Source: Nitrosopumilus sp. (GTDB lineage Archaea > Thermoproteota > Nitrososphaeria > Nitrososphaerales > Nitrosopumilaceae). Taken from it: a stretch of 64,000 nucleotides of DNA. The position numbers and the translations under genes were made by a program. The DNA is taken from NCBI GenBank assembly GCA_965204345.1, contig OZ241981.1, forward strand, positions 1,376,001 through 1,440,000, in the 5' to 3' direction. Under the pieces are notes generated by a model that was not told where the DNA came from, did no database searches, and was given only the letters and a program-made list of their open reading frames with translations. Below, piece after piece: positions 22,023 through 63,976 of the stretch. Within the stretch, counting starts at the first letter, position 1. Each line of letters begins with the position of its first letter.

Positions 22023-22055
22023 AAATTCTTCTGTATTGGCAGCGCGTACTGCTGT

Positions 22056-24749
22056 CTATGTTTTCACTTTGAATAAGGCAGCTTCACCTTCTCTAATGAC
22101 TAATTGCAATTGAGGATTATCCTCAAAGAGGGCTATTCGTTCAGAAGTACTTATGTGAAGAGCTGGAAATACTGGTAGAAGATGCTGTCGTGCCGCTTGT
22201 TGTCTGTTTTGGGGATCACCGCCAGTAATTAACACATATTCAATACCATACTTGTCCAATATTTCCATCATTTTCATGTCTCCGGGATGGTGTAATACAA
22301 GGTTAGCCTCATATGCTCTCTCTTTTAGAAATGTATCATCTGGCACAACATTGGTGCTTATTCTTTTCCACATTTCTCTGTTATTAGTTATATCAAATAT
22401 CTTTATTGATGAAAGCCACATTCCTTCAGTAGTTCTATCCTCAAGGATGGTTGTATTTGAATCAAGATTGTCATTCATCCAACCCATAACTTTTAATTCA
22501 TTGCTTGTAGGTAAATATCCTAGCAAACCATCTTTATACTCGTATGAAATATGAGTATCAAGACTTGGAATTAGTGCAATAAAAACCAACGAGCAAATCA
22601 CTATGGACAAGACTGATTTTGAACGTAATGAAATTTCGCGTTTGTTAAACCTAGTTGCAAGTTTATCAAAAATATCAACCCCTGCTAAAATTATTCCTAT
22701 TTGAGAGATGATAGCTCCTAGTAAAACAAGTCTGTCAGGATACATAAACCAGAAAAGATTCTCATAAATTACTTTATTTGATATTGTTCCAAACACTAGG
22801 GAAAACATTACAATCAAAAATAAACTAAACTCTCGATTGGATTTAAACAACCAAGTTGCAGAAAGAACCCCCCCTAGTAATAAAATAAAATAAGGAAAAT
22901 ATATAGAATCTATGTTGTATATGTCCATCTCCTCTAGAAAGATCCACCAAAAGTCGACCCTAGCACCATGTTCCTGAATCAATTCATCTGCAAAATAAAC
23001 CAGTGATGCGCCTGATGTTACTACCAAAATAATTAACGCCAATCGTAAAGAAGTAAGCATATAGTTTTTTATCTTAAATTTCCCGACTCGCAGTCCATTT
23101 GTTTTGGAGTTTATGGGGGATTTTAAGAGTATTAATTTAATAATTATAAACAAAACAAAGGGAACGATCATGATAGTATATGTGATAAATATTACAACTG
23201 ACAATAGCGAATAAATAATAAAATTAGAATTATTTTTATTATTAATAACTATGCTGATAAAAAGCAAAAGTATGCAAGTAAATGTAGCAAATACAAAAGT
23301 GCCCCCTTCTAATGGAGTAAGTAGTACATCATCAAATAGTATAAAATAACCTACTTCATTTCCTGGAATAAAAAACAATGCTCCAAATGCAATGCTTGCC
23401 AAGTAATACGATTTGGTTTTTTTGTATATTATTGAAAAACAGATGGGCGGCAAGAGTGCAACAATTGTTGCTGTGACGGCATATTGGGATATTGGCAGCA
23501 TGACGTTTGTAATCAAAGAAAAAAATGCAGTCAAAGCATGAAATCCCTGAGGATAAACTGTCATTCCATATGGCAAATCAAAAAATGGCCAATTATTGTT
23601 AAACACACTCGTATGATACATTATAAATTGCGAAGCGTGACCATGGTATTGCGGATCATGAATCGGCGGCCAGCTCATATTTTCTGCAATTATAAAAAAG
23701 TGAGTCAGTGACAGAATTATGAGTATGCCTGCAATCAGATTTGGAAGAACTTTTTCATTTTTAATTTCAGACAGAATTTTAGCTCTGTCTCTGAAAATCA
23801 AGTAAGAGCCAACCATCATAAACGAAAAGAAGGCTGTCAGAACAGTAGTCTGTGTAAAGTGAAGCATTGCCAGAAAAATCGCCAAAAGAATCAGCAATAC
23901 CAAGCCAAAGGCAGAGTACAGGGAAAAATTAATTACAAATCCAAAATTCAGCTTGTATCGGATAATTTTTAATAGAAAATACCCCATAATAACTGAAGAC
24001 GACAAATAAACAATCATGGATGTCAGTATCTCGTTTTTAAAATTCGACCTGTCTGAACCTATTTTGCTGTCAAATAATCCAGGCACTACCTCTGCATTTG
24101 CAATGTTCAGGCGCTGTGCTAGCTGTGCGTGATATTCTACATCAAATAATCCAGGCACTACCTCTGCATCTGTAATGAGCGTGGTCTGGGAATAAGAGTC
24201 CCCTCCGTTTACAAATGTAATTCTAAGAGACTTGACATTGCCAGGATCAAAGCCAGGTTTATTTTGAACGTAATTGGAGGGATCTACAATAACTTTTGCC
24301 CAAGTGCCATCTTCTAAACCAAACCACTGTGGCAAATTCCAAAAAGGACGCTGTATATCATTTGCATCAACCATGATCAAAAATGCATTAGCCCTCCATG
24401 CTTCAGGAGTACTTTTATTTATTCCAGCCACATTTTCAAGATTCATCCAAAATCGTAATCCTTGGCCCGTAGACAGATCCACAGGCTTGGAAAAACGGCA
24501 CTCAAGAACTGCTGTTTCTGTGGCATCACTGCTGGAAAAATAACTATAGGTAAAATCGCTATCATCATCATCATCATCACTATTCATATTCAGAGATTTG
24601 TCCAAAAAACTAGACTCTGAATCCCACGTACATTTATTCTCACTGTCAGACTCGAAAACATAAAAATCATGAAGATTTTCGGCAAATACAATTGATGGCA
24701 ACGCACATAATACCAACAAAACAAGTGCTATCCCACTAACAAGAAACAA
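22056..24749 (-). CDS. Multi-TM GT-C-like glycosyltransferase with N-terminal carbohydrate-binding-like domain, copy 1 (carries a 24-aa insertion)
   Basis: WPPxxDPQYH and YPQGFH loop motifs, more than 12 TM helices, C-terminal W..NLDSNTTIL-D / LDKYGIEYVL domain. Confidence 0.7.
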   Translation of the reverse strand: MFLVSGIALVLLVLCALPSIVFAENLHDFYVFESDSENKCTWDSESSFLDKSLNMNSDDDDDDSDFTYSYFSSSDATETAVLECRFSKPVDLSTGQGLRFWMNLENVAGINKSTPEAWRANAFLIMVDANDIQRPFWNLPQWFGLEDGTWAKVIVDPSNYVQNKPGFDPGNVKSLRITFVNGGDSYSQTTLITDAEVVPGLFDVEYHAQLAQRLNIANAEVVPGLFDSKIGSDRSNFKNEILTSMIVYLSSSVIMGYFLLKIIRYKLNFGFVINFSLYSAFGLVLLILLAIFLAMLHFTQTTVLTAFFSFMMVGSYLIFRDRAKILSEIKNEKVLPNLIAGILIILSLTHFFIIAENMSWPPIHDPQYHGHASQFIMYHTSVFNNNWPFFDLPYGMTVYPQGFHALTAFFSLITNVMLPISQYAVTATIVALLPPICFSIIYKKTKSYYLASIAFGALFFIPGNEVGYFILFDDVLLTPLEGGTFVFATFTCILLLFISIVINNKNNSNFIIYSLLSVVIFITYTIMIVPFVLFIIIKLILLKSPINSKTNGLRVGKFKIKNYMLTSLRLALIILVVTSGASLVYFADELIQEHGARVDFWWIFLEEMDIYNIDSIYFPYFILLLGGVLSATWLFKSNREFSLFLIVMFSLVFGTISNKVIYENLFWFMYPDRLVLLGAIISQIGIILAGVDIFDKLATRFNKREISLRSKSVLSIVICSLVFIALIPSLDTHISYEYKDGLLGYLPTSNELKVMGWMNDNLDSNTTILEDRTTEGMWLSSIKIFDITNNREMWKRISTNVVPDDTFLKERAYEANLVLHHPGDMKMMEILDKYGIEYVLITGGDPQNRQQAARQHLLPVFPALHISTSERIALFEDNPQLQLVIREGEAALFKVKT

Positions 24750-24799
24750 CAGATTCTAAAATTTTCTTGTTTATTTACTTTTTTGTTATGAGGTTCTGT

Positions 24800-25843
24800 T
24801 CTATTGTACGAAAATTATGTCCGCCTAAGCTCAGGCTTCAGACAAGGGATTATTACCGCATATACCGATCACGAATAATGAAGAGAACCAGACTAAAAGG
24901 AGATCAGACCAGATACATCATACGGCAGCATCAAAAGGGCACAGCTGCAGCAGTCTGGCCCAGACCATGCAGGTCAGCGCAAGACACGTCAGACGCATAT
25001 GGGCAGCCTACCGCAAGACCGGAAGAATACTCCCCCACAGAAAGGCAGAAAGACCCAGAAAGATACCATCACCTGAGGATGTACGTCGTGTTCTTAAGAC
25101 ATATGATGATATTCATGCAGTAGTGCGCACGACTCGCCACCTCAGAAAGTCATCTCATATAAGCTACCATACGGTATACCAAATAATGAAATCCAACGGA
25201 CTGGCCAGACTGTCTCCTGAAAAATCCAAGAAGAGGAAATACGTCAGATACGAGCGACTGTATTCCAATGCAATGTGGCATGTGGACTGGCCAAAATGAA
25301 GGATCCACGCCTGAAAGGACTGCAACTTGTGGCATATCTGGATGATGCATCAAGATGCATAACGGGATTCGAGATATTTGAGTGCCACAAGCCAGAACAC
25401 TGTAGCCGTTTTGCGCAAGGCTATCAAGTCATTTGGCACGCCAGGCCAGATACTTTCAGACAATGGAGCCTAGTTCACATCCCGGAACCGCGGTGTACCT
25501 GCCAAGGGATGGAAGCCCACCAACCCTGTTTGAGTCAGAAGCCCTGGAGAGGTGTATTGTCCTGATTGACTCGCGCTCTCACCACCACCACCCGCAGACC
25601 AACGGCAAGATTGAAAGATTCTTCAAGACACTTGAGGATGAGATTGTACACTTTAAGACGATGGAGGAGTTCATCGACTTTTACAATGAGGATAGGCTGC
25701 ATTTTTCTCTGGACATAGAGAACTGCCAGATGCTCCTGATGGCATTTAAGGCCAAAAAGGTTCCTGATGCGATCAGGAAAAACAACCAAAAATGGATGGA
25801 GGCAGATATGAATGACTAGCGGACATAATTATCATATAATACA
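24800..25843 (+). mobile_element. IS481-family element, variant A copy 1, frameshifted transposase
   Basis: 24-bp imperfect TIRs TCTATTGTACGAAAATTATGTCCG / TGTATTATATGATAATTATGTCCG; fragments WHVD, LDDASR, SDNG, PQTNGKIERF. Confidence 0.9.
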
Positions 25844-26058
25844 GCCTTCCTCCTCCTCCTCTTTATCTTTATCATCATCGTCTTTATCATGCCTACCTCT
25901 TGAGTCTCGCGTAAAAACTATCACCTTGTGTTTCTCTGCGAGTCTGCCATCTGCTTTTTTTCCAATAATGCAGTCTGCCCTTGTTCCGATTATTTTTCCA
26001 TCTCTGGGAGTCTGCCAGCTAATTCTTTTCCAATAAAGCTGGTGCTGCCCCCAATTAT
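25844..26058 (-). pseudogene. 5' fragment of the NAD-dependent epimerase gene at 58817-59851, trapped between two inverted IS copies
   Basis: Close match to about 59715-59840, plus a 68-bp duplication-insertion. Confidence 0.85.
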
Positions 26059-27102
26059 TGTATTATATGATAATTATGTCCGCTAGTCATTCATATCTGC
26101 CTCCATCCATTTTTGGTTGTTTTTCCTGATCGCATCAGGAACCTTTTTGGCCTTAAATGCCATCAGGAGCATCTGGCAGTTCTCTATGTCCAGAGAAAAA
26201 TGCAGCCTATCCTCATTGTAAAAGTCGATGAACTCCTCCATCGTCTTAAAGTGTACAATCTCATCCTCAAGTGTCTTGAAGAATCTTTCAATCTTGCCGT
26301 TGGTCTGCGGGTGGTGGTGGTGAGAGCGCGAGTCAATCAGGACAATACACCTCTCCAGGGCTTCTGACTCAAACAGGGTTGGTGGGCTTCCATCCCTTGG
26401 CAGGTACACCGCGGTTCCGGGATGTGAACTAGGCTCCATTGTCTGAAAGTATCTGGCCTGGCGTGCCAAATGACTTGATAGCCTTGCGCAAAACGGCTAC
26501 AGTGTTCTGGCTTGTGGCACTCAAATATCTCGAATCCCGTTATGCATCTTGATGCATCATCCAGATATGCCACAAGTTGCAGTCCTTTCAGGCGTGGATC
26601 CTTCATTTTGGCCAGTCCACATGCCACATTGCATTGGAATACAGTCGCTCGTATCTGACGTATTTCCTCTTCTTGGATTTTTCAGGAGACAGTCTGGCCA
26701 GTCCGTTGGATTTCATTATTTGGTATACCGTATGGTAGCTTATATGAGATGACTTTCTGAGGTGGCGAGTCGTGCGCACTACTGCATGAATATCATCATA
26801 TGTCTTAAGAACACGACGTACATCCTCAGGTGATGGTATCTTTCTGGGTCTTTCTGCCTTTCTGTGGGGGAGTATTCTTCCGGTCTTGCGGTAGGCTGCC
26901 CATATGCGTCTGACGTGTCTTGCGCTGACCTGCATGGTCTGGGCCAGACTGCTGCAGCTGTGCCCTTTTGATGCTGCCGTATGATGTATCTGGTCTGATC
27001 TCCTTTTAGTCTGGTTCTCTTCATTATTCGTGATCGGTATATGCGGTAATAATCCCTTGTCTGAAGCCTGAGCTTAGGCGGACATAATTTTCGTACAATA
27101 GA
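26059..27102 (-). mobile_element. IS481-family element, variant A copy 2 (mirror of copy 1)
   Basis: Identical ORF translations on the opposite strand; same TIRs; mirror coordinate sum 51902. Confidence 0.9.
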
Positions 27103-27152: not shown

Positions 27153-29771
27153 TTGTTTCTTGTTAGTGGGATAGCACTTGTTTTGTTGGTATTATGTGCG
27201 TTGCCATCAATTGTATTTGCCGAAAATCTTCATGATTTTTATGTTTTCGAGTCTGACAGTGAGAATAAATGTACGTGGGATTCAGAGTCTAGTTTTTTGG
27301 ACAAATCTCTGAATATGAATAGTGATGATGATGATGATGATAGCGATTTTACCTATAGTTATTTTTCCAGCAGTGATGCCACAGAAACAGCAGTTCTTGA
27401 GTGCCGTTTTTCCAAGCCTGTGGATCTGTCTACGGGCCAAGGATTACGATTTTGGATGAATCTTGAAAATGTGGCTGGAATAAATAAAAGTACTCCTGAA
27501 GCATGGAGGGCTAATGCATTTTTGATCATGGTTGATGCAAATGATATACAGCGTCTTTTTTGGAATTTGCCACAGTGGTTTGGTTTAGAAGATGGCACTT
27601 GGGCAAAAGTTATTGTAGATCCCTCCAATTACGTTCAAAATAAACCTGGCTTTGATCCTGGCAATGTCAAGTCTCTTAGAATTATATTTGTAAACGGAGG
27701 GGACTCTTATTCCCAGACCACGCTCATTACAGATGCAGAGGTAGTGCCTGAATTATTTGACAGCAAAATAGGTTCAGACAGGTCGAATTTTAAAAACGAG
27801 ATACTGACATCCATGATTGTTTATTTGTCGTCTTCAGTTATTATGGGGTATTTTCTATTAAAAATTATCCGATACAAGCTGAATTTTGGATTTGTAATTA
27901 ATTTTTCCCTGTACTCTGCCTTTGGCTTGGTATTGCTGATTCTTTTGGCGATTTTTCTGGCAATGCTTCACTTTACACAGACTACTGTTCTGACAGCCTT
28001 CTTTTCGTTTATGATGGTTGGCTCTTACTTGATTTTCAGAGACAGAGCTAAAATTCTGTCTGAAATTAAAAATGAAAAAGTTCTTCCAAATCTGATTGCA
28101 GGCATACTCATAATTCTGTCACTGACTCACTTTTTTATAATTGCAGAAAATATGAGCTGGCCGCCTGTTTTTGATCCGCAATACCATGGTCACGCTTCGC
28201 AATTTATAATGTATCATACGAGTGTGTTTAACAATAATTGGCCATTTTTTGATTTGCCATATGGAATGACAGTTTATCCTCAGGGATTTCATGCTTTGAC
28301 TGCATTTTTTTCTTTGATTACAAACGTCATGCTGCCAATATCCCAATATGCCGTCACAGCAACAATTGTTGCACTCTTGCCGCCCATCTGTTTTTCAATA
28401 ATATACAAAAAAACCAAATCGTATTACTTGGCAAGCATTGCATTTGGAGCATTGTTTTTTATTCCAGGAAATGAAGTAGGTTATTTTGTAATTTCTCATG
28501 ATGTACTACTTACTCCATTATCTACAGGAACTTTTGTATTTGCTACATTTACTTGCATACTTTTGCTTTTTATCAGCATAGTTATTAATAATAAAAATAA
28601 TTCTAATTTTATTATTTATTCGCTATTGTCAGTTGTAATATTTATCACATATACTATCATGATCGTTCCCTTTGTTTTGTTTATAATTATTAAATTAATA
28701 CTCTTAAAATCCCCCATAAACTCCAAAACAAATGGACTGCGAGTCGGGAAATTTAAGATAAAAAACTATATGCTTATTTTACGATTGGCGTTAATTATTT
28801 TGGTAGTAACATCAGGCGCATCACTGGTTTATTTTGCAGATGAATTGCAGAAGATAAATAATATTCCGATCACCACTTACTGGCTATTATTTGAGAATAT
28901 GGACATATACAACATAGATTCTATATATTTTCCTTATTTTATTTTATTACTAGGGGGGGTTCTTTCTGCAACTTGGTTGTTTAAATCCAATCGAGAGTTT
29001 AGTTTATTTTTGATTGTAATGTTTTCCCTAGTGTTTGGAACAATATCAAATAAAGTAATTTATGAGAATCTTTTCTGGTTTATGTATCCTGACAGACTTG
29101 TTTTACTAGGAGCTATCATCTCTCAAATAGGAATAATTTTAGCAGGGGTTGATATTTTTGATAAACTTGCAACTAGGTTTAACAAACGCGAAATTTCATT
29201 ACGTTCAAAATCAGTCTTGTCCATAGCGATTTGCTCGTTGGTTTTTATTGCACTAACTCCAAGTCTTGATACTCATATTTCATACGAGTATGACGATGAT
29301 TTGCTAGGATATTTACCTACAAGCAATGAATTAAAAGTTATGGGTTGGATGAATGACAATCTTGATTCAAATACAACCATCCTTCAGGATAGAACTGGTG
29401 AAGGAATGTGGCTTTCATCAATAAAGATATTTGATATAACTAATAACAGAGAAATGTGGAGAAGAATACACAGTAGTGTTGTGTTAGATGATACATTTCT
29501 AAAAGAGAGAGCATATGAGGCTAACCTTGTATTACACCATCCCGGAGACATGAAAATGATGGAAATATTGGACAAGTATGGTATTGAATATGTGTTGATT
29601 ACTGGCGGTAATCCGAAAGACAGACAACGATCGGATGCGTACCCGCTTCTACCAGTATTTCCAGCTCTTCACATAAGTACTTCTGAACGAATAGCCCTCT
29701 TTGAGGATAATCCTCAATTGCAATTAGTCATTAGAGAAGGTGAAGCTGCCTTATTCAAAGTGAAAACATAG
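27153..29771 (+). CDS. GT-C-like membrane glycosyltransferase, copy 2
   Basis: Near-identical to copy 1 except for short divergent loop patches. Confidence 0.7.
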   Translation: MFLVSGIALVLLVLCALPSIVFAENLHDFYVFESDSENKCTWDSESSFLDKSLNMNSDDDDDDSDFTYSYFSSSDATETAVLECRFSKPVDLSTGQGLRFWMNLENVAGINKSTPEAWRANAFLIMVDANDIQRLFWNLPQWFGLEDGTWAKVIVDPSNYVQNKPGFDPGNVKSLRIIFVNGGDSYSQTTLITDAEVVPELFDSKIGSDRSNFKNEILTSMIVYLSSSVIMGYFLLKIIRYKLNFGFVINFSLYSAFGLVLLILLAIFLAMLHFTQTTVLTAFFSFMMVGSYLIFRDRAKILSEIKNEKVLPNLIAGILIILSLTHFFIIAENMSWPPVFDPQYHGHASQFIMYHTSVFNNNWPFFDLPYGMTVYPQGFHALTAFFSLITNVMLPISQYAVTATIVALLPPICFSIIYKKTKSYYLASIAFGALFFIPGNEVGYFVISHDVLLTPLSTGTFVFATFTCILLLFISIVINNKNNSNFIIYSLLSVVIFITYTIMIVPFVLFIIIKLILLKSPINSKTNGLRVGKFKIKNYMLILRLALIILVVTSGASLVYFADELQKINNIPITTYWLLFENMDIYNIDSIYFPYFILLLGGVLSATWLFKSNREFSLFLIVMFSLVFGTISNKVIYENLFWFMYPDRLVLLGAIISQIGIILAGVDIFDKLATRFNKREISLRSKSVLSIAICSLVFIALTPSLDTHISYEYDDDLLGYLPTSNELKVMGWMNDNLDSNTTILQDRTGEGMWLSSIKIFDITNNREMWRRIHSSVVLDDTFLKERAYEANLVLHHPGDMKMMEILDKYGIEYVLITGGNPKDRQRSDAYPLLPVFPALHISTSERIALFEDNPQLQLVIREGEAALFKVKT

Positions 29772-32296: not shown

Positions 32297-32317
32297 ATTT
32301 TTTTGGTGAGGTAAGAT

Positions 32318-32905: not shown

Positions 32906-32906
32906 A

Positions 32907-35894: not shown

Positions 35895-35915
35895 ATTTTT
35901 TTGGTGAGGTAAGAT

Positions 35916-36503: not shown

Positions 36504-36504
36504 A

Positions 36505-38367: not shown

Positions 38368-38458
38368 TTTGTTCTTGTTCTTTAAGAAAATTTAAAAGAG
38401 AAATAAATTGTATGTCTGTAACTTATAATAACAGGTATTTGTTGTGAGGCATATAAGC

Positions 38459-40982: not shown

Positions 40983-41527
<545 letters not shown>

Positions 41528-48775: not shown

Positions 48776-48973
48776 GGCATTACACAGATGTCAGGATTTT
48801 GCAACAACAGACAGATATTTGAGACTTTGTCAAGCAAGTACCGTAGCCTGTTTTTCATTTTTAAGTCTTTTTAGCCTTCTTCCCGTGTCCTGCCGTTTTC
48901 ATTGTATCGGTGATGCAAAATTCATGTTTGACAAAATAGAGGCTGGTATAATTCTGGTTGCATCATGGGGTTT

Positions 48974-51179: not shown

Positions 51180-56249
<5,070 letters not shown>

Positions 56250-56282: not shown

Positions 56283-57158
56283 TCATATCTCCCAGTCTAT
56301 TTTGCGCCCCAGCATTATTTCCAGCTTTGTCTTTTCGTCCAGAAATATCTCCCTGAGTTGCGACATGTCAAATTCCGAACTTTTCGGACGCTTTTCCTTT
56401 TTCATCAAAAACATCTCAGCCATCTTTATTATCCTGTCAGTTGGGAGTATTCTGACTACTATCTTCAAAAGTGTCTTGTTTTTTATTACTGCTTTTTGCA
56501 ATCTTCCCCCCGGCACTGCGTACCTGTTATAAACTTCATCCTTAAAATCATGCAATCCGTCTATCTCCAAGAATTCCAAAACCTCCCTTACTGTTTTTTT
56601 GGTATCTTTGATGAATTCCTCAAAAATTATGATTTTTATCTGTTTTTTATCAAACTTGCCGTAATAATTTCCTATATGCTGAGAATACATGCCTGTTTTT
56701 ACAATTGAATGTATGTCTTTTGACAATGATCTTATGCCTGCCTTGACTACCTCCTCAAACGGCAGAATGTCTAATGCATACTTTATCTGATACAGATAAT
56801 CTGAAATTAGCCTCTCATTTGGATTTCTTAAGATCATAATTATCTTGGCATTGGGATTCTTTGCATGTATAGCTCCCGGGGAATCGGGGTCCATAAAGTA
56901 CGTTACGCTGCCTTCCCCTATTATCTGATCCTCTCTTGCGTGCGCAAATAATGACAGGTATTCTTTTTCGGTTTTTATTGGACTTACAATCAGATTCGTC
57001 TGCCGTTTAATGTTTGGCGAAAAATAATGCGACTCTTTGCGCTTTGGCATAAATATTTTGGGATTCTGTTTCAAATACTTGTACAGTGATGTAGTTCCTG
57101 ACCTTGGAGCTCCGACAATAAAGAAATCTGGAAACCGCATGTCCAAAAATATTTTCAA
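56283..57158 (-). CDS. PAPS-dependent sulfotransferase, intact copy B
   Basis: PDFFIVGAPRSGTTSLY, KESHYF, ILRNP.ER.IS. Confidence 0.92.
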   Translation of the reverse strand: MKIFLDMRFPDFFIVGAPRSGTTSLYKYLKQNPKIFMPKRKESHYFSPNIKRQTNLIVSPIKTEKEYLSLFAHAREDQIIGEGSVTYFMDPDSPGAIHAKNPNAKIIMILRNPNERLISDYLYQIKYALDILPFEEVVKAGIRSLSKDIHSIVKTGMYSQHIGNYYGKFDKKQIKIIIFEEFIKDTKKTVREVLEFLEIDGLHDFKDEVYNRYAVPGGRLQKAVIKNKTLLKIVVRILPTDRIIKMAEMFLMKKEKRPKSSEFDMSQLREIFLDEKTKLEIMLGRKIDWEI

Positions 57159-57357: not shown

Positions 57358-58593
57358 TTATTTCTCTCTCTCCATACAGCTGTTTATCACCTTCATCAAT
57401 CGCTTGCCAATCATCTCTATTGTTAGGTTCTCTAGAACGTACCTTCTTCCGTTTTGACCCAATTCCTCTGCAAGCTTCTCGTCTTTTACCAATTTCAAAA
57501 TCAAATCCGAAACAGTCTTGGGATCCCTTGATGATGTTACAATGCCGCTTTTTGTCCTGTTTACATAGCGTTTTGATTCCCCCTTTGAGATACAAAAGAT
57601 TGGCCTTCCAATCATTTGATAGTCCAATGTCTTTGTAATCAATTCATAGTCAAATCCCCTGACCGGACTTAGGGGCAATAAAAAAATATCCGCGCTGTTT
57701 AGTATCTCGTTATACTTTTCAAATTCGACAAATTTTGTATCTATTTTGACATTTGTAATTTTCTGCTGCTGAACCTGCTGTTTTAGATAATCCTCCCTGT
57801 CTCCCTCGCCCCTGATTATGAACTGTATCGGATACTGCTCTAAAATCTTGGCAGCCTGCAGTATTGTATCAAAATCATATCCGATACTTAGTGCGCCGGC
57901 ATACATTAGAATTTTTTTCCTTCCACTTGGTCCGTCTTGGTGTTGCTCATCCCTTTTGTTTTCATTAGTCCTGAATTTTTCCGTATCTACGCCATGCTCA
58001 ATAACTGTAATTTTTTCTCTTTTGATCTTATATTTTGACTCCAATACGTCTACAGAACCTTCACTTAGTGGCACCACTGCACACGAATTGTCATATGATT
58101 TTTGGGCAATATGGTCTAAAATCTTTCTGAAGATCCTCGACTTGACATATCCCAAGTCATACCATACTTCTGGCCACATGTCATCGACATTACGAATATA
58201 TTTTTTTTTCAGAAAAAAACTGTACACTGCAGCAGGAAATGAAACAAAAAAGCTCGGGTTTGATGCAAAAATTATGTCAGTATCGCGAAATTTCTGCATT
58301 ACCAACAGTGATGAGAGACAAAATGAAAGATGAATTATTACGCGTTTTAAAATGGACGAAAAAGCTAACTTGGGAACCCATGTTCTGTATATTGTCATGC
58401 CGTCAATCTGTTCTTTTGCAACTAGCTTGCCCCTGTATTTTTTTGGAATGTCCCCCTTTGGATAGTGTGGAAACGCAGATACGACAGTTACGTTGTTGCC
58501 TTGGTTCTTTAATGCCTTAGCTGCATTGTGTGCTCTAGTCGATCCGCCGCCTATGTCTGGCCAGAACAGCTGTGCTATGATTAAAACATTCAT
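57358..58593 (-). CDS. GT4 glycosyltransferase, copy B
   Basis: Near-identical to copy A with clustered substitutions. Confidence 0.9.
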   Translation of the reverse strand: MNVLIIAQLFWPDIGGGSTRAHNAAKALKNQGNNVTVVSAFPHYPKGDIPKKYRGKLVAKEQIDGMTIYRTWVPKLAFSSILKRVIIHLSFCLSSLLVMQKFRDTDIIFASNPSFFVSFPAAVYSFFLKKKYIRNVDDMWPEVWYDLGYVKSRIFRKILDHIAQKSYDNSCAVVPLSEGSVDVLESKYKIKREKITVIEHGVDTEKFRTNENKRDEQHQDGPSGRKKILMYAGALSIGYDFDTILQAAKILEQYPIQFIIRGEGDREDYLKQQVQQQKITNVKIDTKFVEFEKYNEILNSADIFLLPLSPVRGFDYELITKTLDYQMIGRPIFCISKGESKRYVNRTKSGIVTSSRDPKTVSDLILKLVKDEKLAEELGQNGRRYVLENLTIEMIGKRLMKVINSCMEREK

Positions 58594-58816: not shown

Positions 58817-59851
58817 TTACTTGCTCTCCCCTTCTCCCTGACTATCCACACTATTACCACTACCACTACTGCGGCCACGACGACCCTCATTACTAATCCA
58901 CTCTATGGTCTTTTTTAATCCTGTCAGTATATCGACTCTTGGGTTATACTTTAGGACATTTTGCATTTTGGACAAATCTGGCTGAAAGTATGCCGTCTGA
59001 CCGCTTTGCTTAACCTGGTATTTTATTTTGATGTTCAAAGAAGAAGAAGAAGAAGAAGAAGAAGAAGAAGAGCTGCCAATCAAATCTGAGATTATCCTTG
59101 CCATCTCGTCAATCTTAAAGTTGTCCGTTGAGCAGAGGTTAAATGTCTCCTTTGAGAATTTTCCCTCTACTGTCAGCTCAATGGCATCAATCAGGTCATC
59201 AATGTAAATAAAATTCAATGTCTGACCGCCTCCAAAGATAATGATCTCTTCGTTGATCAAGGCACTGTTGATCATCTCGTACAATCCCGAAACCCTTCCA
59301 TGCGGCCCATATACGTTTGTGGGCCGCAATATTATGTAATCAAGGTCATACATGTCTGAAAAATATCTGATCATATTTTCTGCAATCATCTTTGTAATTC
59401 CCAGTATGTTGTTTGGACACAGTGTATCGTTTTCGCTGCTGCATGCACCTTTTTGGCTTTCCCCGTAAACCTCTCTTGATGATATGAAAATCAACTTTGA
59501 GTTTGATCTTAAACAGCCTTGGATGACGTTATATGTTCCATAGACATTGGTGCCAAACGTATCTGTTGGATTATCATTGCAGTTTTTGAGCCCGGTCTGA
59601 CCTGCTGCATTAACTACAATATCGGGTTTGTACTTCTCCAAAAGTCCGATGATGCGGCTGTCTTTCATGTCGATTATTTCTGTCTTGTTGCCCTTCTCAT
59701 CCTCCCTGTCTTTGCCTTTATCATCACCGTCTTTATCATGTCTGCCTCTTGAGTTTCGCGTAAAAACTATCACCTCATGTTTCTCTGAGAGTCTGCCAGC
59801 TAATTCTTTTCCAATAAAGCCGGTGCTGCCCCCAATTATCACAATCTTCAT
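58817..59851 (-). CDS. NAD-dependent sugar epimerase/dehydratase (extended SDR)
   Basis: GGSTGFIG, SSREVYG, LRPTNVYG; the usual YxxxK reads LGITK. Confidence 0.85.
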   Translation of the reverse strand: MKIVIIGGSTGFIGKELAGRLSEKHEVIVFTRNSRGRHDKDGDDKGKDREDEKGNKTEIIDMKDSRIIGLLEKYKPDIVVNAAGQTGLKNCNDNPTDTFGTNVYGTYNVIQGCLRSNSKLIFISSREVYGESQKGACSSENDTLCPNNILGITKMIAENMIRYFSDMYDLDYIILRPTNVYGPHGRVSGLYEMINSALINEEIIIFGGGQTLNFIYIDDLIDAIELTVEGKFSKETFNLCSTDNFKIDEMARIISDLIGSSSSSSSSSSSSLNIKIKYQVKQSGQTAYFQPDLSKMQNVLKYNPRVDILTGLKKTIEWISNEGRRGRSSGSGNSVDSQGEGESK

Positions 59852-59945
59852 TATACTTTCACGATCATTGAATAATGCAAACTCTCATAATAAAACTTTG
59901 AAGACACGTTAACTTTTTATATTGACATAGGAGGGTGAAGGTTAC

Positions 59946-60926
59946 TTGGATTCTGAGGAGTTTAAAGACCTTAATGTTTTAGTTACGGGAGCCGACGGCT
60001 TCATTCCAGGCCATGTCTGTGAAAGACTAGTTGAGTTAGGTGCAAATGTCACGGGACTGGTCCGAAGAAACTCAAGCAACGTACTAAAGTCAATTCCTCA
60101 CCTTATTGATAAAATTAATTTTAGATGGGGCGATATCACTGATTTGTCGTTACTGGCACGAGAGACCAAAGGGATTGACATCATATATCACTTGGGTGCC
60201 CAGAGCCACGTCCAGTATTCACTGCATAATCCGCTTGAGACATACCAGACCAATGTCATGGGAACAATCAACGTCTTAGAAGCAGCCAGGCTAAATGATG
60301 TAAGGCGCGTGGTTCATGCGGGAAGTTCAGAAGTGTATGGCAAGCCTGAAACGGTTCCAATCACAGAGAACCATCCACTGGCCCCTCGCAGTCCGTATGC
60401 AGCAGGCAAGGTAGCCTCAGACAGGCTCTTGTTCTCTTACTATTGCACGTATGGAATGTCAGTTGTCACATCGAGGTTCTTTGGATATTACGGTCCAAGA
60501 CAGAGCATAGAAAAGGCTATTCCAAAATTCATTTTAAACATTCACAACGGCATTCCTCCTACGGTTTACGGTGACGGCAGTCAGAGTCGTGACCTGATGT
60601 TTGTAACTGATGCTGCTGATGCCTATACGAGGCTGGGTCTGGCCGACAACGTTGATGGCAAGGTGCTCAACGTGGGAACCGGCGTGGAATCTACAATAAA
60701 GGATCTTATCTTGTTGATTTTGAAATTGATGGATTCTAAGCTAGAGCCGGTCTTTACAAAGAACCTTCATCCTGGCGAGGCAGGCAGGCTTATCTCTGAT
60801 CCTACACCTATAATGGAACTCTTGAACTGGAAGCCAAGCATAAGCCTGGAGGAAGGACTCAAGAGAACCATCGATTACTATCTGCAACACACACATCTGT
60901 TCAAACACCTCAATGTCGTAGTATGA
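59946..60926 (+). CDS. NAD-dependent nucleotide-sugar 4,6-dehydratase/epimerase
   Basis: GADGFI, HLGAQSHV, SSEVYG, SPYAAGK, YGPRQ. Confidence 0.9.
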   Translation: MDSEEFKDLNVLVTGADGFIPGHVCERLVELGANVTGLVRRNSSNVLKSIPHLIDKINFRWGDITDLSLLARETKGIDIIYHLGAQSHVQYSLHNPLETYQTNVMGTINVLEAARLNDVRRVVHAGSSEVYGKPETVPITENHPLAPRSPYAAGKVASDRLLFSYYCTYGMSVVTSRFFGYYGPRQSIEKAIPKFILNIHNGIPPTVYGDGSQSRDLMFVTDAADAYTRLGLADNVDGKVLNVGTGVESTIKDLILLILKLMDSKLEPVFTKNLHPGEAGRLISDPTPIMELLNWKPSISLEEGLKRTIDYYLQHTHLFKHLNVVV

Positions 60927-61312: not shown

Positions 61313-61354
61313 GTACAAAGAAAAAGTAAATAAACAAGAAAATTTTAGAATCTG

Positions 61355-63976
61355 TTGTTTCTTGTTAGTGGGATAGCACTTGTTTTGTTGGTATTATGTG
61401 CGTTGCCATCAATTGTATTTGCCGAAAATCTTCATGATTTTTATGTTTTCGAGTCTGACAGTGAGAATAAATGTACGTGGGATTCAGAGTCTAGTTTTTT
61501 GGACAAATCTCTGAATATGAATAGTGATGATGATGATGATGATAGCGATTTTACCTATAGTTATTTTTCCAGCAGTGATGCCACAGAAACAGCAGTTCTT
61601 GAGTGCCGTTTTTCCAAGCCTGTGGATCTGTCTACGGGCCAAGGATTACGATTTTGGATGAATCTTGAAAATGTGGCTGGAATAAATAAAAGTACTCCTG
61701 AAGCATGGAGGGCTAATGCATTTTTGATCATGGTTGATGCAAATGATATACAGCGTCTTTTTTGGAATTTGCCACAGTGGTTTGGTTTAGAAGATGGCAC
61801 TTGGGCAAAAGTTATTGTAGATCCCTCCAATTACGTTCAAAATAAACCTGGCTTTGATCCTGGCAATGTCAAGTCTCTTAGAATTACATTTGTAAACGGA
61901 GGGGACTCTTATTCCCAGACCACGCTCATTACAGATGCAGAGGTAGTGCCTGGATTATTTGACAGCAAAATAGGTTCAGACAGGTCGAATTTTAAAAACG
62001 AGATACTGACATCCATGATTGTTTATTTGTCGTCTTCAGTTATTATGGGGTATTTTCTATTAAAAATTATCCGATACAAGCTGAATTTTGGATTTGTAAT
62101 TAATTTTTCCCTGTACTCTGCCTTTGGCTTGGTATTGCTGATTCTTTTGGCGATTTTTCTGGCAATGCTTCACTTTACACAGACTACTGTTCTGACAGCC
62201 TTCTTTTCGTTTATGATGGTTGGCTCTTACTTGATTTTCAGAGACAGAGCTAAAATTCTGTCTGAAATTAAAAATGAAAAAGTTCTTCCAAATCTGATTG
62301 CAGGCATACTCATAATTCTGTCACTGATTCACTTTTTTATAATTGCAGAAAATATGAGCTGGCCGCCGATTCATGATCCGCAATACCATGGTCACGCTTC
62401 GCAATTTATAATGTATCATACGAGTGTGTTTAACAATAATTGGCCATTTTTTGATTTGCCATATGGAATGACAGTTTATCCTCAGGGATTTCATGCTTTG
62501 ACTGCATTTTTTTCTTTGATTACAAACGTCATGCTGCCAATATCCCAATATGCCGTCACAGTAACAATTGTTGCACTCTTGCCGCCCATCTGTTTTTCAA
62601 TAATATACAAAAAAACCAAATCGTATTACTTGGCAAGCATTGCATTTGGAGCATTGTTTTTTATTCCAGGAAATGAAGTAGGTTATTTTATACTATTTCA
62701 TGATGTACTACTTACTCCATTAGAAGGGGGCACTTTTGTATTTGCTACATTTACTTGCATACTTTTGCTTTTTATCAGCATAGTTATTAATAATAAAAAT
62801 AATTCTAATTTTATTATTTATTCGCTATTGTCAGTTGTAATATTTATCACATATGCTGTCATGATCGTTCCCTTTGTTTTGTTTATAATTATTAAATTAA
62901 TACTCTTAAAATCCCCCATAAACTCCAAAACAAATGGACTGCGAGTCGGGAAATTTAAGATAAAAAACTATATGCTTACTTCTTTACGATTGGCGATAAT
63001 TATTTTATTAGTAACATTAGGTGCACCACTGGTTTATTTTGCAGATGAATTGATTCAGGAACATGGTGCTAGGGTCGACTTTTGGTGGATCCTTCTAGAG
63101 GATATGGACATATACAACATAGATTCTATATATTTTCCTTATTTTGTTTTATTACTAGGGGGGGTTCTTTCTGCAATTTGGTTGTTTAAATCCAATCGAG
63201 AGTTTAGTTTATTTTTGATTGTAATGTTTTCCCTAGTGTTTGGAGCAATATCAAATAAAGTAATTTATGAGAATCTTTTCTGGTTTATGTATCCTGTCAG
63301 ACTTGTTTTACTAGGAGCTATCATCTCTCAAATAGGAATAATTTTAGCAGGGGTTGATATTTTTGATAAACTTGTAACTAGGTTTAACAAACGCAAAATT
63401 TCATTACGTTCAAAATCAGTCTTCTCCATAGCGATTTGCTCGTTGGTTTTTATTGCACTAATTCCAAGTCTTGATACTCATATTTCATACGAGTATAAAG
63501 ATAATTTGCTAGGATATTTACCTACAAGCAATGAATTAAAAGTGATGGGTTGGATGAATGACAATCTTGATTCAAATACAACCATCCTTGAGGATAGAAC
63601 TAGTGAAGGAATGTGGCTTTCATCAATAAAGATATTTGATATAACTAATAACAGAGAAATGTGGAGAAAAATAAGCGCCAATGTTGTGCCAGATGATACA
63701 TTTCTAAAAGAGAGAGCATATGAGGCTAACCTTGTATTACACCATCCCGGAGACATGAAAATGATGGAAATATTGGACAAGTATGGTATTGAATATGTGT
63801 TAATTACTGGCGGTGATCCCCAAAACAGACAACAAGCGGCACGACAGCATCTTCTACCAGTATTTCCAGCTCTTCACATAAGTACTTCTGAACGAATAGC
63901 CCTCTTTGAGGATAATCCTCAATTGCAATTAGTCATTAGAGAAGGTGAAGCTGCCTTATTCAAAGTGAAAACATAG
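61355..63976 (+). CDS. GT-C-like membrane glycosyltransferase, copy 3
   Basis: Near-identical to copies 1 and 2. Confidence 0.7.
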   Translation: MFLVSGIALVLLVLCALPSIVFAENLHDFYVFESDSENKCTWDSESSFLDKSLNMNSDDDDDDSDFTYSYFSSSDATETAVLECRFSKPVDLSTGQGLRFWMNLENVAGINKSTPEAWRANAFLIMVDANDIQRLFWNLPQWFGLEDGTWAKVIVDPSNYVQNKPGFDPGNVKSLRITFVNGGDSYSQTTLITDAEVVPGLFDSKIGSDRSNFKNEILTSMIVYLSSSVIMGYFLLKIIRYKLNFGFVINFSLYSAFGLVLLILLAIFLAMLHFTQTTVLTAFFSFMMVGSYLIFRDRAKILSEIKNEKVLPNLIAGILIILSLIHFFIIAENMSWPPIHDPQYHGHASQFIMYHTSVFNNNWPFFDLPYGMTVYPQGFHALTAFFSLITNVMLPISQYAVTVTIVALLPPICFSIIYKKTKSYYLASIAFGALFFIPGNEVGYFILFHDVLLTPLEGGTFVFATFTCILLLFISIVINNKNNSNFIIYSLLSVVIFITYAVMIVPFVLFIIIKLILLKSPINSKTNGLRVGKFKIKNYMLTSLRLAIIILLVTLGAPLVYFADELIQEHGARVDFWWILLEDMDIYNIDSIYFPYFVLLLGGVLSAIWLFKSNREFSLFLIVMFSLVFGAISNKVIYENLFWFMYPVRLVLLGAIISQIGIILAGVDIFDKLVTRFNKRKISLRSKSVFSIAICSLVFIALIPSLDTHISYEYKDNLLGYLPTSNELKVMGWMNDNLDSNTTILEDRTSEGMWLSSIKIFDITNNREMWRKISANVVPDDTFLKERAYEANLVLHHPGDMKMMEILDKYGIEYVLITGGDPQNRQQAARQHLLPVFPALHISTSERIALFEDNPQLQLVIREGEAALFKVKT

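What the first reader, a model, noticed from the sequence alone, without database searches (positions are those of the whole stretch)
22034..63976. 42-kb surface-glycan locus of nested inverted repeats: a possible recombination-driven glycan shuffler
Seen: GT-C copies 1 and 3 bound the locus in inverted orientation, IR1 and IR2 lie inside it, and copies 2 and 3 are direct repeats. Inference: homologous crossovers would flip segments of roughly 2-8, 2-21 or 37-42 kb and create chimeric glycosyltransferases without a site-specific invertase, giving surface variation against viruses or a host.
Basis: partly seen in the sequence, partly recalled or inferred. Interest (0 to 1): 0.8.

Follow-up and report, generated by a model that had tools for sequence, protein, structure and literature searches.

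The report
IS-riddled archaeal surface-glycan duplication island
A surface-sugar gene cluster of a probable archaeon has been copied, flipped and partly broken around dead jumping genes, and its multi-copy membrane glycosyltransferase has swapped small variable segments between copies, but nothing shows that it is a purpose-built switching device.

Summary
Three copies of a DUF6541 gene are 96-98% identical: copy 1 inverted against copies 2 and 3, copies 2 and 3 direct. Two inner inverted repeats are confirmed, one with 4,104 identical bases. A predicted structure supports the GT-C label at fold level.

- Six broken IS481-family copies, with an IS end at a boundary of every duplication.
- A 3,598-bp tandem duplication carrying heptose-pathway genes.
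- Decay in the duplicate arm: a frameshifted sulfotransferase and a gutted surface-protein gene.
- At least three further paralogues outside the window, so copies 1 and 3 need not bound the locus.

Past recombination is supported. The six paralogues are mosaics (169 of 595 site pairs fail the four-gamete test). Their differences sit in sharply bounded mini-cassettes, mostly predicted to face outward, and show no purifying selection.

No site-specific recombinase or reverse transcriptase was found.

Best reading: a flexible archaeal (Bathyarchaeota-like) surface-glycan island shaped by IS-mediated duplication and general homologous recombination. A dedicated inversion "shuffler" is possible but unshown; only reads or conspecific genomes can test it.

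The parts
19962..21254 (+). Polysaccharide flippase-like membrane protein (430 aa). Glycan genes therefore begin to the left of the finding.
   Evidence: Pfam Polysacc_synt, E 1.1e-06, 28.7 bits against a cut-off of 28.2.
22056..24749 (-). GT-C-fold DUF6541 gene, copy 1 (897 aa). Carries a 24-aa insertion that copies 2 and 3 lack.
   Evidence: Pfam DUF6541, E 9.9e-15; protein alignment; repeats.
24800..25843 (+). IS481-family copy E1 (1,044 bp), broken.
   Evidence: NCBIfam IS481 fragments; six-copy alignment; longest stop-free stretch 156 aa.
25844..26058 (.). 215-bp spacer between the tail-to-tail IS pair. Positions 25848-25971 are an 85% match to the 5' part of the epimerase gene at 59697-59820, so this is a gene remnant.
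   Evidence: the repeat finder family D20; sequence.
26059..27102 (-). IS481-family copy E2, identical to E1 over 1,044 nt.
27153..29771 (+). GT-C-fold DUF6541 gene, copy 2 (872 aa). Identical to database protein P0002.
   Evidence: Pfam DUF6541, E 3.1e-14; identity to P0002.
29870..31171 (-). IS481-family copy E3 (1,302 bp). Holds a (GGT)x65.7 microsatellite at 30121-30317.
31280..33395 (+). Heptose-pathway genes, first copy: hddA-like kinase 31280-32296, gmhA 32318-32905, gmhB 32907-33395.
   Evidence: NCBIfam: HddA 3.8e-45 (below cut-off), gmhA 5.2e-39 (below cut-off), GmhB NF006506 4.1e-54 (182.9 bits against 178).
33639..34769 (-). IS481-family copy E4 (1,131 bp).
34878..36993 (+). Second, identical copy of hddA-gmhA-gmhB (tandem unit of 3,598 bp).
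   Evidence: 30292-34773 matches 33890-38371 at 100% over 4,482 nt.
37237..38367 (-). IS481-family copy E5. Its left end abuts the outer end of the left arm of the large inverted repeat.
38444..39700 (+). GT4 (WcaI-family-like) glycosyltransferase, left-arm copy (418 aa).
   Evidence: Pfam Glycos_transf_1 and Glyco_transf_4; NCBIfam; 93.5% DNA identity to the right-arm copy.
40021..40896 (+). Sulfotransferase, left-arm copy. Frameshifted by a 2-bp deletion relative to the right-arm gene (the start coordinate is approximate).
   Evidence: Pfam Sulfotransfer_1 on the 203-aa remnant ORF.
40983..41306 (+). Remnant of the surface-protein gene. The N-terminal part is joined to the C-terminal part at 41232, and about 4.4 kb are missing.
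41574..43733 (+). 719-aa multi-pass membrane protein with no Pfam or NCBIfam hit. GT-C-like by language-model features only. Left-arm copy.
   Evidence: The single-sequence structure model was unusable.
43932..45005 (+). GDP-mannose 4,6-dehydratase (gmd), left-arm copy.
   Evidence: Pfam 4.5e-122; TIGR01472 2.8e-120, 401.6 bits against a cut-off of 415.
45195..46172 (-). GDP-L-fucose synthase-like gene (fcl). Single intact copy at the centre of the large inverted repeat.
   Evidence: NCBIfam NF047922, 2.2e-76, below cut-off.
46220..47254 (+). IS481-family copy E6 (1,035 bp). Its right end abuts the inner end of the right arm.
47285..47512 (+). 3' remnant of a second fcl copy, truncated at E6.
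   Evidence: Pfam GDP_Man_Dehyd, profile positions 298-331, E 1.3e-05; junction sequence.
47702..51133 (-). Right-arm copies of gmd (47702-48775) and the 719-aa membrane protein (48974-51133).
   Evidence: 41232-45453 against 51487-47254: 0 mismatches and 1 gap.
51180..56249 (-). 1,689-aa candidate surface protein. Hydrophobic N-terminal segment, five CBM11-like repeats encoded by a 495-bp x 4.8 tandem array, poly-N and poly-Q tracts, and a C-terminal membrane anchor.
   Evidence: Pfam CBM_11, 5.2e-33 with 5 stretches; tandem array; translation.
56283..57158 (-). Sulfotransferase, intact right-arm copy (291 aa).
   Evidence: Pfam Sulfotransfer_1, 2.6e-21.
57358..58593 (-). GT4 glycosyltransferase, right-arm copy (411 aa).
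58817..60926 (.). Divergent pair of NAD-dependent sugar epimerase/dehydratase genes: 58817-59851 (-) and 59946-60926 (+).
61355..63976 (+). GT-C-fold DUF6541 gene, copy 3 (873 aa). This is the protein that was modelled.
   Evidence: Pfam DUF6541, 5.5e-16; AF2 pLDDT 80.1, pTM 0.81; Foldseek GT-C hits.

Best explanation
This is a flexible surface-glycan and surface-protein island of an archaeon, probably a relative of the Bathyarchaeota. Its nested repeats are the accumulated product of two processes: IS481-associated segmental duplication, and general homologous recombination.

Proposed history (inferred):
- An ancestral cluster held an epimerase, a dehydratase and the GT-C gene, alongside a block of GT4, sulfotransferase, surface protein, membrane protein, gmd and fcl, and a heptose operon.
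- IS copies invaded it.
- Recombination at those IS copies and at the GT-C paralogues then produced a tandem duplication of IS plus hddA-gmhA-gmhB, an inverted duplication of the GT4-to-gmd block, and extra inverted and direct GT-C copies.
- Some of the duplicated genes have since decayed.

Gene conversion keeps most of each repeat identical. It also moves short, very divergent mini-cassettes between the six or more GT-C paralogues, so the enzymes are mosaics that differ mainly in loops predicted to face outward and in the C-terminal domain.

What is shown: the repeats, the IS copies at the junctions, the pseudogenes, the mosaicism, and the GT-C fold.

What is inferred: the order of events; that the cell's own recombination system (RadA-type, presumed) does the work; that the variable patches change acceptor or donor specificity or recognition by viruses; and that inversions between the arms still occur sporadically as a by-product rather than as a programmed switch.
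For: - IS copies at the junctions.
  - There are six IS481-family copies with a shared 25-nt imperfect terminal inverted repeat.
  - All six are broken: the longest stop-free stretch is 112-161 aa, whereas 13 of 19 related proteins found are 309-333 aa long.
  - An IS end lies exactly at 38367/38368, the outer end of the left arm, and at 47254, the inner end of the right arm.
  - IS ends also lie at both inner ends of the 1,702-nt inverted repeat and at all three borders of the 3,598-bp tandem unit.
  - Five of six copies have no matching target-site duplication, as expected after recombination between copies.
- Decay in the duplicates: a 2-bp frameshift in the left sulfotransferase, a deletion remnant of the surface-protein gene at 41232, an fcl 3' remnant at 47285-47512, and an epimerase remnant in the 215-nt spacer (family D20).
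- Uneven identity along the large inverted repeat, from 93.5% at the outer end to 100% at the inner end. This fits an older duplication whose inner part was later homogenised.
- Mosaic paralogues. Among 6 distinct sequences there are 35 informative sites, and 169 of 595 site pairs are incompatible.
- The differences cluster. One 51-nt segment is about 50% divergent between perfectly identical flanks.
- pN/pS between copies is 1.30-2.43, so there is no sign of purifying selection.
- In the only relative found in a genome, a Bathyarchaeota MAG (L001), the gene is single-copy. It is the last gene of a co-directional run of ORFs with glycosyltransferase, epimerase and methyltransferase domains, and the 22.5 kb around it contain no repeats.
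- No site-specific recombinase and no reverse transcriptase in the 108 ORF translations scanned.
Against: - No reads and no conspecific genome could be examined, so neither the rate nor the existence of present-day rearrangement is known.
- The excess of nonsynonymous change is not significant (binomial p = 0.09-0.23). Relaxed constraint would explain it as well as selection.
- The perfect identity of the 4.1-kb arms and of the tandem unit could also come from very recent duplication or from assembly, rather than from gene conversion.
- The topology that places the variable patches outside the cell rests on hydropathy and the positive-inside rule. One patch (446-458) may be cytoplasmic or re-entrant.
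- That paralogues P0001, P0003 and P0004 lie on the same contig as the window is inferred from equal contig length in the search table. It was not seen directly.
Confidence: 0.6

Rival explanations
1. The nested inverted repeats are a selected device: RecA/RadA-type crossovers between the arms repeatedly flip segments of 4-8, 2-21 and 38-42 kb. This creates chimeric GT-C genes and mixed surface types within a population, without any invertase.
For: - The inverted arms are long and near-identical, with exact tracts of 437 to 4,104 nt.
- The repeats are nested.
- No site-specific recombinase was found.
- The paralogues are mosaics.
- The variable patches are mostly predicted to face outward.
- A system of this general type is recalled for the Campylobacter fetus sap genes. 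It is only mentioned in passages of PMC5634654.
Against: - Every GT-C copy is a complete ORF with the same conserved upstream 40 nt or so, so flipping changes no expression state.
- Copies 1 and 3 differ at only 30 mismatches plus one indel, so chimeras add little.
- Two of the genes on the left arm are broken, and dead IS copies mark the junctions. These are the marks of accident, not design.
- Direct repeats of the same genes would delete 34 kb as readily as the inverted ones invert.
- In a bacterial survey, glycosyltransferase families were under-represented at predicted programmed inversions and recombinase genes were enriched (tables seen as passages of PMC9881135).
Confidence: 0.15
2. 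A cassette-exchange (gene-conversion) diversification system. The six or more full-length GT-C paralogues serve as donors and acceptors for short mini-cassettes that retune an enzyme facing the outside of the cell. This would be analogous to antigenic-variation families, but would act on a glycan-building enzyme. Inversions would be incidental.
For: - Hypervariable segments are sharply bounded and in frame, within otherwise identical genes.
- Four-gamete failures are widespread.
- One variable pair, residues 339-340, lies directly before D341. D341 is one of only two invariant residues across the 47 aligned family members.
- pN/pS is at or above 1.
Against: - No partial or silent copies were found among shorter proteins: 0 hits among the 8,000 candidates scored.
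- The selection signal is not significant.
- Only three of the copies are available as DNA.
- Ordinary concerted evolution of a young gene family, combined with loop variability, gives the same picture.
Confidence: 0.15
3. Assembly artefact. Some of the perfect repeats are produced by mis-traversal of an assembly graph tangled by IS copies, or by chimeric amplification products. The candidates are the 3,598-bp tandem unit, the 4.1-kb 100% identical arms and the (GGT)x65 tract.
For: - The affected repeats are exactly 100% identical and bounded by IS copies, which is where assemblers go wrong.
- A 197-nt pure trinucleotide run is unusual.
Against: - Most repeats are not perfect. Identity is 93.5%, 96.0%, 96.5% and 98.4%, with indels, microsatellite-length differences and a 4.4-kb insertion in one arm. 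Separate loci were therefore resolved.
- The junction of E6 with the interior of fcl is unique and needs its own read support.
- Database proteins that match the window lie on a single 2,038,535-bp contig.
Confidence: 0.1

Closest known systems
[quoted passage not shown]
   Same: An archaeal island holding surface-glycoprotein and envelope or glycan biosynthesis genes. According to that abstract its diversity arises by homologous recombination and by mobile elements, and is interpreted as lowering virus infection.
   Different: That case is variation between lineages, seen in fosmid clones. Here the evidence is within one genome: kb-scale inverted, direct and tandem duplications and a multi-copy GT-C family. 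That paper's section heading reports purifying selection on the island genes. Here pN/pS between paralogues is at or above 1.
Campylobacter fetus sap S-layer gene family, which rearranges by DNA inversion between homologues (details recalled; only mentioned in passages and the reference list of PMC5634654)
   Same: A family of full-length homologues with conserved 5' regions in both orientations at one locus. Recombination between them without short invertase sites. A surface structure as the target.
   Different: As recalled, sap inversion moves a single promoter between otherwise silent cassettes. Here each copy has its own conserved upstream region. The genes also encode an enzyme rather than the surface protein itself, and no inversion has been observed.
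Gene-altering programmed inversions, shufflons and invertons in bacteria (PMC9881135, passages read)
   Same: Inverted repeats inside paralogous coding sequences could in principle exchange gene ends.
   Different: Those systems use short inverted repeats and an adjacent recombinase gene, and recombinase genes are enriched at such loci. Here the repeats are 2-7 kb and no recombinase was found. That survey states that it did not scan archaea.
IS-flanked tandem amplification and IS-mediated inversion or deletion in prokaryotic genomes (general knowledge, recalled)
   Same: Direct IS copies bracket a unit that is duplicated head to tail. IS ends lie at the rearrangement junctions, and target-site duplications are missing.
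   Different: The IS copies here are all broken, so later events presumably ran on homology alone. The non-IS GT-C paralogues also serve as repeats.
GT-C fold glycosyltransferases: AftA, STT3/PglB/AglB, DPY19, ALG12, ArnT
   Same: The predicted fold of the membrane core plus an extracytoplasmic C-terminal domain (Foldseek E 4.7e-07 to 2.2e-03). An invariant Asp lies in a loop predicted to face outward.
   Different: No sequence-level match to any of them, and no WWD motif. There is an added N-terminal CBM11-like beta-sandwich. TM-scores are only 0.27-0.50.

Membership tests
Pfam DUF6541 (PF20176) | Match to the family profile above the gathering score | tested here: met
   Copies 1, 2 and 3 score 54.3, 52.6 and 58.4 bits against a cut-off of 29. 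The 853-aa relative in L001 gave no Pfam hit at E<=0.001.
GT-C fold glycosyltransferase superfamily | Multi-pass membrane core with the GT-C fold | tested here: met
   AF2 model with pLDDT 80.1 and pTM 0.81. Of the ten best PDB matches, AftA, the yeast OST entries and DPY19 are named GT-C enzymes; the other three are OST- or translocon-complex entries whose matched chain the table does not name. PglB, AglB, ALG12 and ArnT follow further down. TM-scores are modest, 0.27-0.50.
GT-C fold glycosyltransferase superfamily | Conserved acidic residue in an extracytoplasmic loop next to the membrane (catalytic or metal site) | tested here: inconclusive
   D341 is invariant in 47 of 47 aligned sequences. 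It lies in loop 332-387, predicted to face outward by hydropathy. It was not superposed on a known catalytic Asp.
GT-C fold glycosyltransferase superfamily | Uses a lipid-phosphate-linked sugar donor | not testable with these tools
   Needs biochemistry.
STT3/AglB/PglB oligosaccharyltransferases | STT3 Pfam domain and WWDYG-type motif in the C-terminal domain (motif recalled) | tested here: not met
   No STT3 hit. No 'WWD' in any of the 3 copies.
IS481 family insertion sequence | DDE (rve) transposase with an N-terminal HTH, as a single ORF of about 300 aa | tested here: not met
   Only fragments match NF033577 (53.1 and 34.7 bits against a cut-off of 224), plus rve/rve_3 and HTH fragments. 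The longest stop-free stretch is 112-161 aa in all 6 copies. These are relics of the family, not functional members.
IS481 family insertion sequence | Terminal inverted repeats and flanking target-site duplication | tested here: inconclusive
   A 25-nt terminal inverted repeat with 21 of 25 matches was read from the alignment. Five of six copies have no target-site duplication, and E5 has a possible imperfect one in low-complexity sequence.
Site-specific inversion systems (invertons, shufflons) | Tyrosine or serine recombinase gene at or near the locus | tested here: not met
   0 of 108 ORF translations scanned hit Phage_integrase, Resolvase or similar families. The rest of the genome could not be seen.
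Site-specific inversion systems (invertons, shufflons) | Both orientations present in one population | not testable with these tools
   No reads are available.
Campylobacter fetus sap-type inversion | A single promoter on the invertible segment serves otherwise silent homologues (recalled) | tested here: not met
   All three copies share the same roughly 40 nt upstream of the start codon, including an A/T-rich box.
Diversity-generating retroelement | Reverse transcriptase, with a template repeat and a variable repeat that differ at template adenines | tested here: not met
   No reverse-transcriptase hit. Substitutions in the variable patches involve all four bases.
Flexible surface-glycan / cell-wall genomic island | Cluster of glycan biosynthesis genes, a surface protein and mobile elements | tested here: met
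   gmd, fcl, hddA/gmhA/gmhB, GT4, sulfotransferase, GT-C, a CBM11-repeat protein with a C-terminal anchor, and 6 IS copies.
Flexible surface-glycan / cell-wall genomic island | Differs between strains of one species | not testable with these tools
   Genome contigs holds one genome per species and seems not to hold this one. Its own peptides found no relative.

The most novel reading that the evidence does not exclude
An archaeon diversifies an outward-facing glycosyltransferase combinatorially. Six or more full-length GT-C paralogues are kept nearly identical. They exchange short hypervariable mini-cassettes by gene conversion and by inversion between copies. The cassettes sit next to the invariant Asp, in outer loops and in the C-terminal domain. 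Cells of one lineage would then build different surface glycans. This would be an antigenic-variation-like system acting on the glycan-building enzyme, and the first recombination-based surface variation system described in Archaea.
Probability: 0.15. Interest if true: 0.85.

Novelty: new variant of a known kind. Interest (0 to 1): 0.5.

Why it matters
Variable surface-glycan islands are thought to be a main way that microbes escape viruses. In archaea they have mostly been seen as differences between strains.

Here a single genome preserves the working record of how such an island changes:
- dead IS copies at the duplication junctions;
- tandem and inverted duplications;
- decaying spare copies;
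- a rare GT-C family whose paralogues have traded small, very divergent segments. The family has 96 representatives among 1.84 billion proteins, and no paper in the searched library names DUF6541.

If long reads showed living isomers or changing alleles, recombination-driven surface variation in Archaea would become directly testable. One bacterial survey of gene-altering inversions explicitly left that domain out (PMC9881135).

If the reads show one fixed arrangement, the locus is still a clean example of IS-seeded segmental duplication, and a first functional context for DUF6541.

Tried and rejected
- **Diversity-generating retroelement.** Rejected. No reverse transcriptase was found, and the substitutions are not adenine-specific.
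- **Site-specific invertase.** None found in the window.
- **AglB/STT3 membership.** Rejected.
- **Kinship between the GT-C N-terminal domain and the surface-protein repeats.** BLASTP gave E = 4.8, so none at sequence level. Both resemble CBM11, by fold and by Pfam respectively.
- **Profile search of the family against PDB sequences.** Only a chance-level hit, E = 0.1.
- **The search for related loci with the single protein.** 56 pattern matches and 0 relatives.
- **The search for related loci with the 47-sequence alignment.** A 6-sequence alignment then gave 134 pattern matches and 1 relative, L001.
- **The listing of cluster members.** The number and accessions of the family members therefore stay unknown.
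- **Search for shorter, silent copies.** 0 hits among the 8,000 candidates scored. This is weak evidence.
- **Structure of the 719-aa membrane protein without an alignment.** pLDDT 42, unusable, and not searched further.
- **Literature.**
  - 'DUF6541' gave 0 papers.
  - Two four-term searches gave 0 papers.
  - PMC101520, on C. fetus sap inversion, is not held.
  - One four-term search on Bathyarchaeia, complete genomes, cell surface and glycosylation listed nothing specific to this locus.
- **Significance of pN/pS above 1.** Not reached.


Full report
**1. The observation**

A self-comparison of the window lists 43 matches of at least 150 nt. The repeat finder gives 26 direct families and 82 inverted pairs.

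- Copy 1 (22056-24749, minus strand) and copy 3 (61355-63976, plus strand) are inverted. They match at 98.4% over 22047-24105 / 63987-61927 and at 99.8% over 24142-24783 / 61962-61321.
- Copy 1 and copy 2 (27153-29771, plus strand) are inverted at 96.0%.
- Copies 2 and 3 are direct at 96.5% (27119-29795 / 61321-64000). This match runs to the last base of the window.
- The first inner inverted repeat is 24142-25843 / 27760-26059, 1,702 nt with 3 mismatches and a 215-nt spacer.
- The second is 4,104 nt at 100% (41350-45453 / 51357-47254).
  - It is the core of a larger inverted duplication, 38368-45453 against 58691-47254.
  - Identity along that duplication is 93.5% at the outer end, then 99.3%, 98.9%, and no mismatches in the inner 4.2 kb.
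  - The right arm carries an extra 4.4 kb.

The longest exact shared tracts are 437 nt (copy 1 x copy 3), 1,497 nt (copy 1 x copy 2, including the IS), 566 nt (copy 2 x copy 3) and 4,104 nt. Chance is excluded.

**2. What the repeated gene is**

All three copies match Pfam DUF6541 above its cut-off. No paper in the searched library contains that name.

The family is rare. 96 cluster representatives reach E<=0.001 among 1.84 billion proteins, and the best relative outside this genome is 31% identical.

An AlphaFold2 model of copy 3, built on a 47-sequence alignment, has pLDDT 80.1 and pTM 0.81. It shows three parts:
- an N-terminal beta-sandwich;
- a core of about 12 membrane helices;
- a C-terminal alpha/beta domain.

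Foldseek against the PDB gives 36 matches at E<=0.001.
- The ten best are AftA, four yeast oligosaccharyltransferase entries, two DPY19 entries, and three OST- or translocon-complex entries whose matched chain the table does not name.
- PglB, AglB, ALG12 and ArnT follow.
- The N-terminal domain matches CBM11 structures (TM-score 0.52-0.55 on the target).
- TM-scores for the whole protein are only 0.27-0.50, so the claim is one of fold, not of family.

There is no sequence-level link to solved structures, no STT3 Pfam hit and no WWD motif. D341 and W733 are the only invariant residues in the 47-sequence alignment.

Oligosaccharyltransferase membership is not supported.

**3. What lies between the copies**

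- An hddA-like kinase, gmhA and gmhB (a heptose pathway), present twice.
- A GT4 glycosyltransferase, present twice.
- A sulfotransferase, present twice, with one copy broken.
- A 719-aa multi-pass membrane protein with no family hit, present twice. Its nearest language-model clusters are archaeal, followed by GT-C families. A single-sequence structure model was unusable.
- gmd, present twice.
- fcl, present once plus a remnant.
- Two further epimerase/dehydratase genes.
- A 1,689-aa protein with a hydrophobic N-terminal segment, five CBM11-like repeats encoded by a 495-bp x 4.8 tandem array, poly-N and poly-Q tracts, and a C-terminal membrane anchor. It is a candidate surface glycoprotein. 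An S-layer role was not tested.

A flippase-like gene at 19962-21254 shows that the glycan genes start to the left of the finding.

**4.

A roughly 1.04-1.30-kb element occurs six times:

| Copy | Coordinates | Strand |
|---|---|---|
| E1 | 24800-25843 | + |
| E2 | 26059-27102 | - |
| E3 | 29870-31171 | - |
| E4 | 33639-34769 | - |
| E5 | 37237-38367 | - |
| E6 | 46220-47254 | + |

- Its ORF fragments match the IS481 transposase model and the rve/rve_3 and HTH domains.
- The copies share a 25-nt imperfect terminal inverted repeat.
- All six are broken. The longest stop-free stretch is 112-161 aa, whereas 13 of 19 related proteins found are 309-333 aa long. The best relative from what appears to be the same genome has only 247 aa.
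- Five of six copies lack a target-site duplication.

IS ends coincide with the repeat boundaries.
- E1 and E2 form the inner ends of the 1,702-nt inverted repeat.
- E3, E4 and E5 bracket the two 3,598-bp tandem units, which are 100% identical over 4,482 nt.
- The left end of E5 abuts the first base of the left arm, at 38368.
- The right end of E6 abuts the first base of the right arm, at 47254. There it is joined to the interior of an inverted fcl copy, whose 75-aa remnant is still recognisable.

**5. Decay**

- The left-arm sulfotransferase has a 2-bp deletion that shifts its frame.
- The left-arm surface-protein gene is reduced to an N-terminal piece joined to a C-terminal piece at 41232.
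- The 215-nt spacer between E1 and E2 contains an 85% match to the start of the epimerase gene that lies upstream of copy 3 (family D20). The neighbourhood of copy 2 therefore looks like a degraded duplicate of the neighbourhood of copy 3.

**6. Evidence that recombination has acted on the GT-C family**

A word-indexed search returned four clusters, each on a single contig of 2,038,535 bp.
- One, P0002, is identical to copy 2.
- The other three, P0001, P0003 and P0004, differ from all window copies.
- The genome therefore holds at least six paralogues, and copies 1 and 3 need not bound the locus. This inference rests on the equal contig length shown in the table.

The differences between the paralogues have the following pattern.
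- Among the three window copies, differences are strongly clustered. Long stretches have none, while single 100-column blocks have up to 26 substitutions.
- In the clearest case, about 51 nt are roughly 50% divergent between identical flanks, and the segment is in frame.
- Across the six distinct proteins there are 35 informative sites, and 169 of 595 site pairs fail the four-gamete test. For example, copy 3 shares two residues with P0001 against its otherwise closest partner, copy 1.
- pN/pS between copies is 1.47, 2.43 and 1.30. This is not significantly above 1 (p = 0.15, 0.09 and 0.23), but it is far from the purifying pattern usual for enzymes.
- By hydropathy and the positive-inside rule, several variable patches fall in outward-facing loops or in the C-terminal outer domain: 339-340 (directly before D341), 567-583, 771-779 and 821-832. 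The side of patch 446-458 is uncertain.
- Substitutions involve all four bases and no reverse transcriptase was found, so a diversity-generating retroelement is rejected.
- No shorter, silent copies were found, although that search scored only the 8,000 best candidates.

**7. Relatives and host**

- The window's own peptides found no relative in genome contigs. That collection therefore seems not to hold this genome.
- A 6-sequence alignment found one locus, in a Candidatus Bathyarchaeota MAG (L001, CP070759.1; 28% identity).
  - The gene there is single-copy.
  - It is the last gene of a co-directional run: GT2, a membrane protein, GT2, an epimerase, GT4, GT4, a methyltransferase, then the GT-C-like gene.
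  - The 22.5 kb contain no repeats.
  - The window's GT4 is 42% identical to one of its GT4 genes.
- The nearest language-model clusters for both the GT-C protein and the 719-aa protein are archaeal, with Bathyarchaeota the commonest phylum.
- A Bathyarchaeota-like archaeon is therefore the probable host. No marker gene was analysed.

**8. Interpretation**

The best-supported reading is a flexible surface-glycan island built by IS-seeded segmental duplication and reshaped by the cell's general homologous recombination. Gene conversion homogenises most of each repeat and moves mini-cassettes among the GT-C paralogues. Inversions between the arms are mechanistically expected, but they are best seen as a by-product.

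Several points count against it:
- each copy has its own conserved upstream region;
- an exchange between copies 1 and 3 offers few differences to reshuffle;
- the duplicates are decaying;
- the direct repeats would cause deletions as readily as the inverted ones cause inversions.

Assembly error cannot be excluded for the perfectly identical repeats. It cannot explain the many imperfect ones, nor the unique junction of E6 with fcl.

**9. Comparison with what is known**

- The nearest kind is the archaeal cell-wall genomic island of Haloquadratum walsbyi. Its diversity is ascribed to homologous recombination and mobile elements (abstract of PMC4535781).
Its details are recalled; only mentions were seen in PMC5634654, and PMC101520 is not held.
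- A bacterial survey of gene-altering programmed inversions reports recombinase genes enriched and glycosyltransferase families depleted at such loci. It states that archaea were not scanned (passages of PMC9881135). Its supplementary tables were not consulted.
- Passages of PMC8559796 and PMC4611039 were read and added nothing on mechanism.

**10. What stayed unchecked**

- Reads, conspecific genomes, and the rest of the 2.04-Mb contig.
- The metagenome and viral collections, which were closed.

Noticed in passing
window 30121-30317: A pure (GGT)x65.7 microsatellite lies inside IS copy E3, reading as CCA repeats on the transposase strand. The same tract is only about 2-8 units long in the other five copies. 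Trinucleotide tracts are common in this window: (TGC)x15 at 51325-51369, and poly-N, poly-Q, poly-S and poly-H runs in proteins.
   Followed up: partly
window 18060-19478 (+): A 472-aa protein with an HNH nuclease domain at residues 368-414. It matches the HNH parts of the Cas9 and IscB models weakly and far below their cut-offs. It sits just upstream of the glycan genes.
   Followed up: no
window 3-1475 (+), 7803-8351, 9620-10198, 14559-15755: Gene content upstream of the locus resembles a defence island. It includes a Type ISP restriction-enzyme C-terminal specificity domain (cut by the window start), a WING-49 domain protein, a weak DarG-like macrodomain match, and DUF2130.
   Followed up: no
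window 52303-54659 within gene 51180-56249 (-): A 495-bp tandem array of 4.8 copies at 99% identity encodes 165-aa CBM11-like repeats separated by poly-Asn linkers. The copy number is likely unstable, and its assembly needs long reads to confirm.
   Followed up: partly
window 56237-56304 versus 40875-40912: A 30-bp tandem repeat between the sulfotransferase and the surface-protein gene has 2.3 copies in the right arm and one fewer in the left arm.
   Followed up: no
window 39861-39916: A 26-bp CA-rich tandem repeat (2.2 copies) lies between GT4 and the sulfotransferase on the left arm.
   Followed up: no
window 22056-24749 (copy 1), aa 195-218: A 24-aa insertion in the linker after the CBM-like domain is shared by copy 1 and the out-of-window paralogue P0004, which are otherwise of different types. 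This is a further sign of exchange between copies. It was not counted in the four-gamete test because the two insertions were aligned in different columns.
   Followed up: partly
window 7187-7263 (+): tRNA-Val (anticodon TAC). It is the only tRNA in the window.
   Followed up: no
L001 9956-12517 (+): The Bathyarchaeota relative of the GT-C protein gets no Pfam hit at E<=0.001, although it aligns to the window protein over residues 29-872. The DUF6541 model therefore seems to miss part of the family.
   Followed up: no
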